From the IMG/VR virus record IMGVR_UViG_651053022_000007, positions 1-64,000 of that record: a stretch of DNA of 64,000 nucleotides. One strand, given 5' to 3'. The stretch is from a virus (lineage: Duplodnaviria > Heunggongvirae > Uroviricota > Caudoviricetes). The first letter of the stretch is position 1. The number at the start of each line of letters is the position of its first letter. This document shows, in pieces, positions 40,101 through 64,000 of this stretch. The position numbers are program-made.

Positions 40101-43100
40101 GCCACTATAAGTTCCCGCCCCTGTTACCGTATAACCAGCATCCAGCACTAGTTTTGTAACGTTACCGTTAAGGTCAGACACCTGAACAACCAGGTCGGAT
40201 TTTTTGAAAATACGGAAGGTATACGGAAATGATGTCGTAACGCCGTTACCTGTGTATTCGTTGTGGTCAACTTCGGTTGAGACCGTCATGTTAAATCTCC
40301 AGATAGTCGCAGCACCCGTTGCGCCGCATATCTGGTTATTCTATTACCCAAAAAACCATATATGGATAGAAAGACTGTGAATATGAATAGATATTACCTT
40401 TCAGGTAATTTGCAAAACGTGCTGGATAGCAAACAAATTATTTGCTACTGTATAAATATACAGTTATTGCATGGAGAAGATTAAGATGCAGCAGTATCAC
40501 TATCCACTGGAAGAGGGATTTACCGAAAGGATTCACACGCCGGGAGGCGTCAGGTCACTGGTGGAGGGATCGCACTTGATGAAATTACTCCGGGATCTCG
40601 ATAAGGATGGATTTAATGTCGATGGCCCACTTGCCGAACTGACTGCACTGATTAACTACGTCACCAGCTCACAGATGTCTATGCAGGATCTGCAAACACA
40701 TCTCGACTATTGTGCCGAACAATTACGAAAACAAACCAGATAAGGTTTGCAATCACCAAATGGAGTGCTTATATTTACCTTTGCGGTAAATTTACAACGC
40801 ACTCCTCTTGTGCCATAGTAATCGAGCACTGGCAAAATCCAGTGCCGGGATTGGCGTCCCGGATTACTAAAAGGCGCATTCACCGCGCAAGCGGTTTTTT
40901 TATGCGTATAGCACGGCCACATTCGTATTATGGTGGGCTGTGTGGGGGCACCGAAAGGTGCGCCGGGTCCTTTTAGCCGGTTACGCCAACCCTGCACAGT
41001 TCACCACCAACCGATTGGCGTCGGTAGTGGTGATTAACCAGACTAAAAGGTAACCACTATGACAGCTACAAAAAGCACGTCCATTTTTTCTTTCGAATCC
41101 CAAGCCGATATACGGGTAATCGTCATTAATGGTGAGCCATGGTTTATCGCTTCAGATGTTTGTCGGGCTATAGGCATAGCAAACCATCGAGATGCTGTTC
41201 GAAAACTTGATGATGATGAGAAGGGCGTCGCTTCAACCGACACCCCTGGCGGTGAGCAAGAATCGATCATCATCTCCGAGTCAGGCCTCTACACACTGAT
41301 CCTCCGCTGCCGCGACGCAGTGACACCAGGCACTATCCCCTACCGCTTTCGCAAATGGGTTACAGGTGATGTTCTTCCTCAGATCCGTCGCACCGGAAGT
41401 TACATTAAAAACTCGCTCCCGCAGGAAGAACGCATAAAGATGGTTGCCGACCAGGTAGCCAGCGCCACAGCATCAGCAGTGATGCAGGCAATGAAGGTAG
41501 AGAACAAAACCTACAGCGCCCCACTGAAGCCCGGCTACCGCAGCCTGATTCATTCGCCGTCTGGTGTTCTTGGCCTGACGGAGAACTCACTGCTGATGAA
41601 TCTGCTGAACCAGTTACAGGACGACGGGCATGACGTATCGGGCGCGGCGGCGGAGCTGACCACCATGTTCTGCTACATCGTCGGTGTGAGCAAATGCCTG
41701 CGTGATATCCAGACGCACGCGGAGTACATCAGCGACAAAGCAGGGTTCTTCTGACGGGCGGCGGCACAGGGATGTGCCTTTAAAATAATCATTGGCGATG
41801 TGATGTAGATTCGCGTAATATTACCTTAAAGGTAAAGGAGGCGCGATATGACAGCGTTGAAAAATCGTACTCAGCACAATGAACAAGCCAAGCAATGCTG
41901 GGATGTCATTGGAAAAGTTATGCTTGGTCGCGCAAGCAAAGAGCGCGACAAGGATATGGTTTACCAGACAGGAACATCTTTTAGCGACTTCAAGGCGGCA
42001 TTTCGCTCCAAATAGAAGCACATCAGGAGTTTTCCTTGAAGTTTAACATTAGAATATCTAATAGTTTTCTACATGGGGAAAGCAACACCCCTTTCGCTGT
42101 AGACGGACCTTTCCTTACTGATGATGAAATAAAAATCATACAAAGGTTTTTAGAGGATGTTGCCAATGGAAGGGCGCTTGTTGGAAAAAACAAGCCATCG
42201 TGGGTTGATGATAACCATGATAAAATTCCCGGCTCAGACAATTATGAGCAAGAGAATTATTGGCATTATCATTGTGGGCCAACATGGTATCCAAACACAT
42301 TTAAGAATTATACCATTAACTTAAATTTCAACCCTGGCGGAATGCATTCTAATGAATGCATTCATTATGCAAAAAATGATAATGAAATTGTCATTGTTGG
42401 ATTTTCAAGAGAACACATACCTTTCCTTTCATCAGATGGAAACAACAATCCGCTTTTTAATGATGAAGAAGAAGAATAAGCCCGCGCTGCGGGCTTTTTT
42501 GTGGACGAAACAAAAGTCAGTGCTACACTCATTGACGCCACATTGAGGTGGCTTATAGATGGAAATTTCACAATGAAAAAAGCATTTGCTGCACTGTTCG
42601 TTTTGTTGTCTCTGGTAGCTTCAACTCAGGCCTTTGCCGGTCGTTGTCAGCACGACAGCGATACTGCCGCTGACGGCTCCCGCTGCGGTGGGCGTTCTGC
42701 GGATTCCCGCCCGGGCGGCGGTGGCATTCGTTAAAAACAAGGCCGCGAAAGCGGCCTGTGACATGTCACGCTACATTGATATATGATTCATAAAGTAGCT
42801 TAAAGATTTACTTCCCAGAAAAGAAATTTCTTTTCCTGGATATGTCGCAATAATTGAGCATGACTTATCCCCGTTAGAGGTAACAAATCCTGAATAACCT
42901 ACTTGTTCTTTACCATTTTGTTGCTTGGCTAAAAAGTAGAGGTAGCTTATCTTTTTGCCCTCTGGGTAAAACTCTGCCAAACCAGTATCGGTGATTGAAT
43001 ATTTTATTCTCCCGCCTTGAGTAACGTTTTCCATCTCAAGTTTAGCTATGTCTTTTCTGTTGTATTCAGCATTGATTTTCCTTTCGAAATCAATGTTGTT

Positions 43101-61100: not shown

Positions 61101-64000
61101 ATCACCGGAGCATGCGCCACCTGCGCAGCGGTTACCACCCGTTTCATTGCCTCATCAGTAAGACCGGTAGGGATAAACTGCAATTCAGATGCATCAGGGA
61201 ATATGCCGCGCACACGGATTTTAACGAAGTCGCTGTCTTCCCCGTAGTCATCGACCCATTTCTGCAACTGCTGTTTGTTAGTGCCTTCCACCGTCCGGCT
61301 GTCAATCTGCGCAGTTTTCCAGCGGTGTTTATATTTGCGGAAACATTCGCGGAAACGCCCGGTGTTACGTGTAGGGTTTCCGAACGCCACCCAGATAATC
61401 TCAGTGTCTTCGTCCGTAAGCGCACCCTCAGCAACTTCCCACACCAGATCCGCAATGTTCGACGCTTCATCGAATACCACGATGATGCGTTTGCGCTCGT
61501 TGTGTAGTCCGGCGAATGCCTCAGTGTTGTGCTCAGACCAGGGGATTGCGTCAGCTCGCCACCGCTTGTCGTGCCCAGGATCATTGCTGTACATCGCGGT
61601 AGCGGTACAGGTAAACCAGTCTTTCGTGATAGCAAGGTTCGACCACTTGATAATTTCCGGCCAGGTCTTCGTTCGTAGCTGGTTGTCGGTGTTGGCGGTC
61701 ACCACGACCTTACAATCCTCGCAAGTGGACATGCCCCAGTTGATCAGCATTGAGATGAATGCGGATTTACCAATACCGTGACCAGAAGCACGTGCCAGCA
61801 TAAGCGGCTGATAGCGCGTCTCTGGATTCTGCAGGTGATCACGTATCTCTCGGAACGCATCAGCCTGCCACTGACGTGGACCGGTGGCATGTGCCAGTTC
61901 AGTCCCCTCTTCCCCCCACGGGAACGCATAGATGGCATAGCCAAGCGGATCGTGAGTGAACCCTGCAATATCCTCGATCAACTGCTCTTCAGGAGATAAC
62001 GCTGTATCTGTCACTGATTACCATCCTGACGTTCTTTGAGTCGCTTCCTGGCTGCTGCTATGCGATCAGCAATTGTCACATTCACATTAACATCCAGGCG
62101 TTCTTTGAATGCGTTGACGTCGACGTGCTTACCAATCAGTTCGAGGTTCTTCACCTTGTCAGGCCATTTAATTTTTTTGAGGATTGTCTCTATCGAATCC
62201 TCGTTCATGTTCATGATGGTCGATGACAGATCAAAGCCACTAAGCGTAGTGCGCCAGATTTTCGGCCACTCACGGATTGGTTTAAGGCTCCCATCGTCGT
62301 TGAGGATGTCGATCACGTCCATCTGGTCGATCTCCACCAGGCGCATGAGAACGTAATCAGCACTGACGCGCATTCGTTTGTTGCGCTCCTCCATCAACTC
62401 GGCAATCCGTTTTTGAATGCGTTCATCGCGCATCATGACACTGGCTTTAACTGCCGCTGTATTTGGAGAGAATCCTGCGTTAATCGCTGCCTGAGTCTGG
62501 TTTTCAGGCGTTTTGATGTATGACTGGCAATAAGCCTCCTGCATTGCTGTTAGTGGCTTAAATTGCGTTGATTTGCGTTTATAGGTTTTAGGTTCAGCAG
62601 GCATCATAACCACCGTGGTAATAGTTACCGTTGTGGTAATAGTACCATGCAAAATAAAGCCGCCATAGTTGGCGGCAGTATTCAAAACCCATCAAATTCA
62701 TCATGCATAATCTACTCGTGACATGTCACACTATTAATTTCGTTTCATGCCAGCCTTTAGTCACCCAGCATTGCGAGTCACCATTACACGGGCATGAATT
62801 AACTGGAACTCTCTCGCCGCACTTACCGCAACATTTTCTGCTGATCGATTTTATACGCCCGCGCACGCGTGCATCATCCTGGCGGATCAGTAACGCTATA
62901 TACTCACCAAATTCGTAAGGCGCACGCCCGGGGCGACGCGTGGCACAGTTACGCTCCAGCATTTCAATTTCCTGAGCATCAAGCACAATTTCCAGCTTAC
63001 GCACACCAGATGCAGCTTGTCTGGCTCTCTGAGCGGCTTTGCGCTCTGCTGCTGATTTAGCCATCAATATTTACCTTTATCGCGAACACATTTACCGGTT
63101 TATCGCCGATGTGCGGATGTGTGATTGTCTTGATTTCATATCCGTCATACGGAACATCAATTCTACGGCTGGGATCGTCGCGCTTCGGATATCCCTTTGT
63201 GATAATCAGGCGGTCATATTCCCGGAACATAATTCGCTTATTCCAGTAGTCATTACACAGGCGATACTCTTCCGTTTTATCTCCGCGAATCATGGCATCG
63301 AAGTATTCACCTTTGACGGCAAGTTGCAGGTTAGCCATTACCGCACCTCCAGTCTCCATACCGCCTGACCAATCCGGCTGGCATGGTTATCTTTAGATAC
63401 TGTTCCGTCTTTAGCAATCTCCATAAGAATTTTGCGCAAATCTTCCGAACGCCATTCTTCATCAGGAAATTCCTTCTCCATTGCCAACCGCAAATTCCAG
63501 GTTGCCATCCTGAATGGATATTCCCCGCCGAGAGCTTTATCTTGCAGGGCAGCCCGGGAACGCATCACCTGCAAAACCTTCTCTTTTACATCCATCATTT
63601 CGCCTCCTGCGGCGGTTCCGGTAGCGGAATCCAGTGAGTTGCTTGCTCAATACCATTACCCGGCTTAATCGTTGCATCTCCGCGCCGAAAGGTGCTTCCG
63701 GTATAGCGTGCGGAGCATATTAGCGGCTCAACCAGATCACTATCGAAATTCACCGAAATAAGTACGTTCTGATTCTTTTTCGGCATTCGCTCACTACAGC
63801 TTATCCAACCATCCGGAGTTACCGGAGTTGGTCCATCGAATTCGGGCATGTCAGGACCTTTTCTGATAGCTTTAGCCAGCTCCAGCGGGTCATCGTAAAG
63901 CCAGTCGCCAGTTTGTGGGTGATTTGCTTCTGCAAGCTGCGCAGCCCATTCAAGACCATCTTTTTGACCTTGGAGATAATCAAGCGGCAACTCTTCATGA

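What the first reader, a model, noticed from the sequence alone, without database searches (positions are those of the whole stretch)
42758..62728. Identical 12-bp perfect palindrome GTGACATGTCAC at two late-region sites
One copy lies about 30 bp upstream of the terminase small subunit start; the other lies between the convergent cargo genes next to a terminator hairpin. A specific 12-mer recurring by chance in 64 kb is unlikely (order 0.004). It may be a binding site for a late regulator or a packaging-related site.
Basis: seen in the sequence. Interest (0 to 1): 0.4.

Follow-up and report, generated by a model that had tools for sequence, protein, structure and literature searches.

The report
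Conserved phage operator for RHH regulator
The repeated 12-base palindrome is real and conserved: it is most likely the DNA-binding site of a small uncharacterised ribbon-helix-helix protein encoded right next to it, and this gene-plus-site pair travels together through several unrelated groups of temperate phages.

Summary
GTGACATGTCAC occurs exactly twice in the window (42758, 62718). A third, one-mismatch copy lies at 60453. The region is an epsilon15/phiV10-like (Uetakevirus) phage with its late operon on the minus strand.

- **Conservation:** epsilon15, phiV10, SPN1S and Tyrion each carry the exact 12-mer at the same three places, while the flanks diverge. The places are the stop codon of the last early gene (eps15 gp49 homologue), just after terL, and the end of the structural operon.
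- **General motif:** the motif is GTGAC-N2-GTCAC, and it co-occurs with the gp49/N15-gp46 protein family in at least four unrelated phage lineages. It overlaps that gene's stop codon in 16 of 20 bacterial species genomes sampled without regard to the motif.
- **Specificity:** the central dinucleotide is lineage-specific (AT, TG, GC) and tracks the protein's predicted beta-strand.
- **Controls:** lambda and P2 have no copies.
- **Protein fold:** the predicted structure is ribbon-helix-helix plus a Cys4 C-terminal module.

The best reading is the cognate operator of this protein. Its regulatory role is unproven; control at transcription-unit boundaries is my leading guess. A packaging site, a promoter and host MatP/matS are not supported. 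matS has the same half-sites but is one base longer. I found no prior description.

The parts
62718..62729 (.). Palindrome copy P1 (GTGACATGTCAC). It overlaps the stop codon of the RHH-Zn gene, at the junction between the early-right operon and the packaging genes.
   Evidence: The exact copy is at the same position in eps15, SPN1S and Tyrion and across the phiV10 record junction. It was found in 121 of 131 homologue-bearing loci held, and in 16 of 20 species genomes sampled without regard to the motif.
42758..42769 (.). Palindrome copy P3. It lies 1 nt after the stop of the last late-operon ORF and abuts the late-operon terminator hairpin.
   Evidence: Syntenic exact copies occur in phiV10 (19493), eps15 (19517), Tyrion (20377), SPN1S (19662) and BUCT711 (18526). 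Homology to other phages breaks right at this copy.
60453..60464 (.). Degenerate copy P2 (GTGGCATGTCAC, one mismatch). It lies between the terL-end hairpin and the 3' end of the reverse-oriented N4gp49/Sf6gp66-family gene.
   Evidence: This position is exact in phiV10 (2262), eps15 (2142), SPN1S (2174) and Tyrion (2702). In a survey of 95 loci, 69 were exact, 8 had one mismatch and about 16 had no copy.
62726..63064 (-). 112-aa gene of the eps15 gp49 / N15 gp46 family (PHROG 536): predicted ribbon-helix-helix domain plus a Cys-rich C-terminal module. This is the candidate binder.
62659..62676 (-). Intrinsic terminator hairpin (GCCGCC..GGCGGC plus T tract) between P1 and terS.
62625..62639 (.). 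Inverted repeat TTACC-N5-GGTAA, matching the 'repressor' operator consensus annotated in the eps15 record, just upstream of the terS ATG.
   Evidence: sequence; eps15 sites ATTACC-N5-GGTAAT, one at the same position.
62014..62607 (-). Terminase small subunit gene (the probable ATG start, ATG 62607, is used here).
   Evidence: PF03592.
42740..42757 (-). Late-operon intrinsic terminator hairpin (AGGCCGC..GCGGCCT plus T tract), directly after P3.
   Evidence: phiV10 annotates the same element as a terminator.
60472..60489 (.). Hairpin AAGCC-N8-GGCTT with T/A tracts on both sides, next to P2. It terminates the gp66-like gene and probably terL as well.
   Evidence: read from the sequence; the phiV10 record annotates a terminator at the equivalent place.
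60092..60448 (+). Reverse-oriented N4 gp49 / Sf6 gp66-family gene whose stop lies 4 nt before P2.
   Evidence: PF13876.
42771..43331 (-). 186-aa last ORF of the late operon (PHROG 11983). It is a variable module that replaces phiV10 gp21.
42573..42734 (+). 53-aa secreted or membrane 'moron' gene, convergent on the P3-terminator unit.
   Evidence: PHROG 14503; it recurs next to P3 in many contigs.

Best explanation
**What it is.** The palindrome is one instance of a conserved cis-element, GTGAC-N2-GTCAC. I propose it is the operator of the small protein encoded immediately upstream of copy P1, which belongs to the eps15 gp49 / N15 gp46 family (PHROG 536).

**How binding would work (inferred).**
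- The protein has an N-terminal ribbon-helix-helix (RHH) fold and a C-terminal module with four conserved cysteines.
- It would bind as a dimer, with the paired beta-strands reading the central dinucleotide in the major groove.
- Conserved basic N-terminal residues (ERK..QR.R) would contact the invariant GTGAC half-sites.

**How it is inherited.** The gene and one site form a compact cassette, with the site overlapping the gene's own TGA stop codon. Two to three further sites lie elsewhere in the genome.

**Where the sites are in this phage.** The protein's gene is the last one in the early-right operon. Its sites sit at three transcription-unit junctions of the late region:
- early operon to terS;
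- terL against the convergent gp66-like gene;
- end of the structural operon against the convergent cargo genes.

Each site in this window lies next to an intrinsic terminator.

**Proposed role (least certain).** My working model is that occupancy of these sites during lytic growth controls how RNA polymerase crosses these junctions, either as a roadblock/insulator or by modulating read-through.

**Shown versus inferred.** The conservation, the gene-site linkage, the lineage-specific centres and the predicted fold are shown. Actual binding and the regulatory consequence are inferred.
For: **Exact conservation at syntenic sites.** The 12-mer is exact at three syntenic positions in eps15, phiV10, SPN1S and Tyrion, although the flanks and the adjacent hairpins differ.

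**Gene-site linkage.**
- 121 of 131 homologues in the loci held have the motif at or near the stop codon.
- In 20 species-representative bacterial genomes found by protein similarity alone, 16 have the motif overlapping the stop and 18 have it within 300 nt. That is 25 sites in 159 kb against 0.15 expected.

**The same architecture in unrelated phages.**
- N15-like: 49 of 49 loci have GTGACTGGTCAC or GTGACGGGTCAC at the stop, and 89 sites were found against 0.54 expected.
- P2-like Yersinia phages: 48 of 54 loci have the motif (GTGACGCGTCAC in nearly all) at the stop, with a second partial site about 30 nt downstream.
- Vibrio siphoviruses: one site lies 226-250 nt after the gene, and in K308, L321 and L322 another lies 19-20 nt before the terS ATG. 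Both sites change centre together, to CC/CC, in L322.

**Controls.** Lambda, P2 and the first 42.7 kb of the window contain no copies. The expectation from half-site frequencies is 0.02-0.06 per genome.

**Covariation.** The central dinucleotide tracks the predicted beta-strand: RKLEIVLD with AT/CT, RRDWVLE with TG, EIRARLE with GC, and ELRLKVS with NC. Most homologues whose strands fit none of these lack the motif.

**Phage-specific centres.** N15-like phages and Uetakeviruses share hosts but keep different centres. This argues for a phage-encoded rather than a host specificity determinant.

Against: - No binding experiment exists, and no paper in the library mentions the motif.
- The protein reaches no curated RHH family threshold and has no PDB sequence relative.
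- The first AF2 model was poor (pLDDT 53), and Foldseek found nothing.
- The lineage-level covariation rests on only four or five independent lineages.
- The regulatory part is weak. P2 is missing in about 17% of relatives.
- In BUCT711 two copies lie inside structural genes, and in N15 one lies inside repA. Adjacency to terminators is therefore not universal.
- An operator at the 3' end of a gene is atypical for an RHH repressor.
Confidence: 0.72

Rival explanations
1. The sites are a phage-borne DNA-organising system rather than a transcription switch. The RHH-Zn protein would bind several dispersed sites and bridge or mark them, in the manner of MatP-matS or ParB-parS. It could affect compaction, replication or segregation of phage DNA, or it could interfere with host MatP/MukBEF.
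Confidence: 0.12
2. The palindrome is bound by a host factor, MatP or another conserved enterobacterial regulator, and not by the phage protein. The phage would borrow host machinery.
For: The motif is nearly identical to matS. It is exactly conserved across phages of Escherichia, Salmonella, Enterobacter and Klebsiella.
Against: The motif is 12 bp, not 13, so a defining feature of matS fails. The central dinucleotide is lineage-specific even among phages that share hosts (N15-like TG against Uetakevirus AT) and changes in concert within a genome. The motif is physically fused to the phage gene in 16 of 20 species genomes sampled without regard to the motif. True matS is reported absent from 500 Escherichia and Salmonella prophages.
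Confidence: 0.04
3. The palindrome is part of a late promoter, supplying the -35 element GTGACA. It would be the DNA target of a Q-like antiterminator, in the order regulator gene, promoter/site, terminator, late genes, as in lambda Q-PR'-tR'.
For: The scanner finds GTGACA-18-CATGAT at P1 (minus strand) and GTGACA-18-TATGAT at P3 (plus strand). In eps15, GTGACA-17-TAAATT can be read from the sequence. The order gene-site-terminator-terS mimics the lambda late control region.
Against: One promoter-like hit per region equals the shuffle expectation. The -10-like hexamer is not conserved. In many relatives the next gene's ribosome-binding site and ATG follow 9-20 nt after the motif, leaving no room for a promoter. 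P2 and P3 have a terminator hairpin 1-4 nt away. The protein has no Q-family match.
Confidence: 0.05
4. The motif is a packaging (pac) or terminase recognition site.
For: P1 lies upstream of terS and P2 just after terL. In Vibrio phages a copy lies 19-20 nt before the terS ATG.
Against: The motif follows the gp49-family gene rather than terminase. In the cos phages N15 and the P2-like Yersinia phages it is far from terminase genes. In non-Uetakevirus contigs the gene-site cassette is followed by unrelated genes. P2 is dispensable. P3 and the intragenic copies have no packaging logic.
Confidence: 0.03
5. The motif acts in RNA, as a small hairpin upstream of terminators (antitermination or processing signal), or it is merely a conserved linker at mosaic junctions with no protein partner.
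For: In this window each copy precedes an intrinsic terminator in the direction in which that terminator works. Homology breakpoints fall at the motif.
Against: RNA folding gives only a 4-5 bp hairpin that is independent of the terminators, with no alternative pairing. There is no Rfam match. The N15 centre (TG) is not self-complementary. Some copies lie inside genes or directly before ribosome-binding sites. Perfect dyad symmetry of the half-sites and coupling to an RHH gene point to double-stranded DNA recognition.
Confidence: 0.04

Closest known systems
Ribbon-helix-helix repressors and their short dyad operators (Arc, Mnt, CopG, MetJ, PutA, AmrZ, RHH antitoxins)
   Different: The protein belongs to no curated RHH family. 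It carries a C-terminal Cys4 module. The best-conserved site overlaps the gene's own stop codon rather than its promoter. Further sites are kilobases away at operon ends or inside genes.
MatP-matS (E. coli Ter macrodomain)
   Same: The half-sites GTGAC/GTCAC are identical. The binder is an RHH protein in both cases. Sites are few and dispersed rather than clustered at one promoter. Hosts of the phages belong to groups that have MatP (host list; MatP distribution from my own knowledge).
   Different: matS is 13 bp with an R-N-Y centre, while the phage site is 12 bp with a 2-bp centre. There is no detectable sequence homology to MatP. The model shows no four-helix bundle or coiled coil. The centres are lineage-specific.
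Lambda Q / PR'-qut / tR' late control module
   Same: The regulator is the last gene of the early-right operon. Its presumed DNA site lies directly downstream, followed in this window by a terminator and then the terminase genes.
   Different: There is no conserved promoter at the site. There is no Q homology. The site also occurs at operon ends and in phages that carry other annotated late activators (N15 gp40, an Ogr-like gene).
Type I partition cassettes (parB followed by parS in P1 and F)
   Same: One binding site lies immediately 3' of the binder's gene, so gene and site are co-inherited as a cassette, with extra dispersed sites possible (as in N15 Sop; my own knowledge).
   Different: There is no ParA partner. 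The binder is a 112-aa RHH protein, not a ParB. Most carriers are integrating prophages.

Membership tests
Ribbon-helix-helix DNA-binding proteins (candidate binder) | beta-alpha-alpha fold | tested here: met
Ribbon-helix-helix DNA-binding proteins (candidate binder) | Significant match to a curated RHH sequence family | tested here: not met
   Only sub-threshold hits were found: NF008671 LexA-regulated protein (E 0.052) and PF10723 RepB-RCR_reg (E 0.034, on a Vibrio homologue). There was no Pfam hit above cut-off and no PDB sequence hit.
Ribbon-helix-helix DNA-binding proteins (candidate binder) | Specific binding of the protein dimer to the dyad site | not testable with these tools
   This is inferred only from co-inheritance and covariation.
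MatP/matS | 13-bp site GTGAC-RNY-GTCAC | tested here: not met
   All phage sites have a 2-bp centre and are 12 bp long. The consensus is taken from PMC3603311.
MatP/matS | Binder homologous to MatP (four-helix bundle + RHH + coiled coil) | tested here: not met
Lambda-type Q antitermination module | Site embedded in a sigma-70 promoter with a conserved -10 element, followed by a terminator | tested here: not met
   Promoter-like hexamers are at chance level and not conserved. A terminator follows in this window, but in many relatives the next gene starts 9-20 nt after the site.
Lambda-type Q antitermination module | Regulator belongs to a Q family | tested here: not met
   No Pfam family matched. 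The fold is RHH.
pac / terminase recognition site | Constant association with the terminase genes | tested here: not met
   The motif is associated with the gp49-family gene. It is remote from terminase in N15 and in the P2-like Yersinia phages.
Intrinsic terminator (as part of it) | G+C-rich hairpin followed by a T tract, formed by the element itself | tested here: not met
   The palindrome folds only into a separate 4-5 bp hairpin. The neighbouring hairpins are the terminators.
CRP-type site | TGTGA-N6-TCACA spacing | tested here: not met
   Read from the sequence, the spacing would be TGTGA-N4-TCACA, and only where the flanking T and A are present.

The most novel reading that the evidence does not exclude
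Temperate phages of Enterobacterales, Vibrio and Aeromonas carry their own 'matS-like' system. A MatP-like RHH protein plus two to four GTGAC-N2-GTCAC sites would organise or bridge phage DNA, or would interfere with host MatP/MukBEF-dependent chromosome handling, rather than simply repressing a promoter. The one-base-shorter spacer would keep the phage sites orthogonal to host MatP. This would also explain why true matS is absent from prophages.
Probability: 0.1. Interest if true: 0.8.

Novelty: new variant of a known kind. Interest (0 to 1): 0.5.

Why it matters
- It assigns a specific, testable DNA target to a widespread but uncharacterised phage protein family. That family has 726 cluster representatives, no Pfam family, and a PHROG label of 'transcriptional regulator' with no binding site given.
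- It adds a conserved control element to the map of epsilon15/phiV10-type phages, which are used for typing, detection and engineering.
- The cassette, with its site fused to the gene's stop codon, marks mosaic junctions. That makes it useful for annotating module boundaries.
- The identical half-sites to host matS raise a testable question about cross-talk with, or deliberate insulation from, the host Ter-organising system.

Tried and rejected
- **Literature:** no paper contains the 12-mer. The eps15 genome paper could not be opened. The ZX5 paper says nothing relevant.
- **Structure:** the first AF2 run on a shallow alignment failed (pLDDT 53). Foldseek against the PDB gave nothing. A profile search of PDB sequences gave nothing.
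- **MatP homology:** rejected by hhalign.
- **Known RNA families:** Rfam finds only a tRNA in 42-64 kb. RNA folding shows no terminator/antiterminator alternative.
- **Promoter reading:** rejected because the hits are at chance level and not conserved.
- **Physical genome end:** the phiV10 record starts inside the palindrome. That turned out to be a convention, since the record is opened right after the last gene's stop codon.
- **Other contexts of the 14-mer in viral contigs:** most other matches are coding coincidences (the start of lambdoid Q genes, reading MRDMSQ, and another ORF family) or iteron-like GTCACG arrays.
- **More relatives:** searches for the Aeromonas homologue found none, and for the Vibrio homologue only two.
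- **Two-mismatch copies in the window:** 8768 and 57429 are at the chance level.
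Full report
**Observation.** GTGACATGTCAC occurs exactly at 42758-42769 and 62718-62729 and nowhere else in the window. No copy appeared in 100 dinucleotide-preserving shuffles. With one mismatch allowed there is a third copy, GTGGCATGTCAC, at 60453-60464. The two-mismatch hits are at the chance level. It is the only 12-bp palindrome in the window that occurs twice.

**Genomic context.** Positions 42.7-64 kb are an epsilon15/phiV10-like podovirus (genus Uetakevirus) with its late operon on the minus strand. In descending coordinates it holds terS, terL, portal and the other structural genes down to an 850-aa virion protein and a 186-aa ORF.
- Copy 62718 (P1) overlaps the TGA stop of a 112-aa gene (62726-63064, minus strand), the homologue of eps15 gp49 and phiV10 p55. 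Going downstream it is followed by 37 nt, an intrinsic terminator (62659-62676), an inverted repeat matching the repressor operators annotated in the eps15 record, and then the probable terS start at 62607.
- Copy 42758 (P3) lies 1 nt after the stop of the last late ORF and 1 nt before the late-operon terminator, facing a convergent 53-aa cargo gene.
- The degenerate copy (P2) lies between the terL-end hairpin and the stop of a reverse-oriented N4gp49/Sf6gp66-family gene.

**Conservation in relatives.** Complete genomes of eps15, phiV10, SPN1S and Tyrion share as little as 80% TerL identity with the window. Each carries the exact 12-mer three times, at the same three positions, and nowhere else. 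In phiV10 and Tyrion one copy spans the record junction. The flanks and even the adjacent terminator hairpins differ between these genomes. None of the GenBank records annotates the element, and no paper in the library contains the sequence.
- A scan of viral contigs for the 14-mer returned many Uetakevirus-like contexts. The sequence on one or both sides of the palindrome is replaced by unrelated modules, so the motif sits at mosaic junctions.
- P2 is exact in 69 of 95 loci, has one mismatch in 8 (including this window's variant) and is absent in about 16.
- Klebsiella phage BUCT711 keeps P1 and P3, lacks P2 and has two further copies inside structural genes.

**Link to a protein family.** The gene whose stop codon P1 overlaps belongs to a family with 726 cluster representatives, no Pfam domain and no PDB sequence relative. 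PHROG 536 labels it 'transcriptional regulator'. Distant homologues (30-41% identity) occur in phages of quite different kinds. In four of those lineages the motif GTGAC-N2-GTCAC reappears; the Aeromonas phage, the fifth entry below, has only a one-mismatch variant.
- *N15:* three copies, one overlapping the gp46 stop.
- *N15-like contigs:* all 49 loci have the motif at the stop, and 89 sites were found in 571 kb against 0.54 expected.
- *P2-like Yersinia phages:* the motif (GTGACGCGTCAC in nearly all) overlaps the stop in 48 of 54 loci, with a second partial site about 30 nt downstream.
- *Vibrio siphoviruses:* one site lies 226-250 nt after the gene, and in K308, L321 and L322 another lies 19-20 nt before the terS ATG. 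In one member both sites have changed centre together, to CC.
- *An Aeromonas phage:* the variant GTGACCGGACAC occurs twice, once just before the homologue's ribosome-binding site.
- *Sample taken without regard to the motif:* among 20 loci from species-representative bacterial genomes found by protein similarity alone, 16 have the motif overlapping the stop and 18 have it within 300 nt.
- *Controls:* lambda, P2 and the first 42.7 kb of the window contain no copies. The expectation from half-site frequencies is 0.02-0.06 per genome.

The central dinucleotide of the site is lineage-specific and tracks the predicted beta-strand. RKLEIVLD goes with AT (CT tolerated), RRDWVLE with TG, EIRARLE with GC, and ELRLKVS with NC. 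Most homologues whose strands fit none of these patterns lack the motif. N15-like phages and Uetakeviruses share hosts yet keep different centres. This argues for a phage-encoded rather than a host specificity determinant.

**Mechanism.** I am fairly confident of this much: GTGAC-N2-GTCAC is the operator of this RHH-Zn protein, inherited with the gene as a cassette, plus extra sites. The regulatory role is inferred with much lower confidence. In this phage the protein's gene is the last one in the early-right operon, and its sites mark three junctions between transcription units, each beside an intrinsic terminator in this window. I therefore favour control of RNA polymerase passage at unit boundaries.

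Several observations weaken any terminator-specific model. Some relatives have intragenic copies, some lack P2, and in some the site lies directly before the next gene's ribosome-binding site. RNA folding shows no alternative pairing with the terminators, and Rfam has no match at the sites.

**Comparison with known systems.** The half-sites are those of the host matS site. matS is 13 bp (GTGAC-RNY-GTCAC) and is reported absent from 500 Escherichia and Salmonella prophages. The phage motif is consistently 12 bp, and the protein shows no sequence homology to MatP. It is therefore not a matS/MatP member, although a MatP-like organising role cannot be excluded.
- The lambda Q-PR'-tR' analogy fails on the promoter.
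- A pac role fails because the motif follows the regulator gene, not terminase.

**Verdict.** 'Packaging' is not supported. The element appears to be undescribed. It is a new variant of the RHH-operator theme, with an unusual stop-codon-fused, multi-site layout.

Noticed in passing
window 5099-5111: GTGACAGTGTCAC is a perfect 13-bp match to the host matS consensus (GTGAC-RNY-GTCAC). It lies inside the 1610-aa ORF 994-5826, which matches plasmid TraI relaxase genes. The shuffle expectation is 0.01.
   Followed up: no
window 1-12000 versus 12000-64000: The first 12 kb or so are plasmid- or ICE-like (TraI relaxase, GC 0.55-0.61), and the rest is Uetakevirus-like. The integrase (34383-35639) sits beside the lysis genes, as in the free phage map, so the phage is not integrated through its own attP here. 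A 114.9-kb record, 'phage PH444', covers both palindrome regions.
   Followed up: partly
window 59817-59893 (+) and 19558-19633 (+): The phage part carries tRNA-Arg(tct) and tRNA-Val(tac). The tRNA-Arg lies in the late region between the gp66-like gene and the portal gene, on the strand opposite to the late operon.
   Followed up: no
window 62617-62639: Overlapping inverted repeats GGTAATAGTTACC and TTACCGTTGTGGTAA lie just upstream of the terS ATG. They match the ATTACC-N5-GGTAAT 'repressor' sites annotated in the eps15 record upstream of terS, gp3 and the tailspike gene. This suggests direct prophage-repressor control of the late units.
   Followed up: partly
L008, L026, L037, L325 (directly after palindrome P1): In some relatives the terminator after P1 is replaced by a promoter, TTGACT-17-TATACT, that overlaps a LexA box (CTGT-N8-ACAG). 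This is presumably the SOS-controlled antirepressor promoter, and it starts 6 nt after the palindrome.
   Followed up: no
L323 (Klebsiella phage BUCT711) 26462 and 23066: Extra copies of the motif lie inside structural genes (one exact, one GTGACGTGTCAC), and there is no copy after terL.
   Followed up: partly
L209 (Vibrio phage K308) 19491; L213 (lambda) 9747 and 19010: K308 also has a 13-bp matS-type site, GTGACACCGTCAC. Lambda has two 11-bp GTGAC-N-GTCAC sites but no 12-bp site.
   Followed up: no
window 42340-42363: The 10-bp palindrome GAATGCATTC occurs twice, 14 bp apart, inside the ORF 42036-42479.
   Followed up: no
L342 (Limoniibacter endophyticus contig): An N15-type gene-plus-site cassette sits in a genome labelled Limoniibacter endophyticus, outside the Enterobacterales/Vibrio/Aeromonas hosts of all the other carriers seen. 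Its site and downstream sequence are identical to those of N15-like viral contigs. This may be contamination or recent transfer.
   Followed up: no
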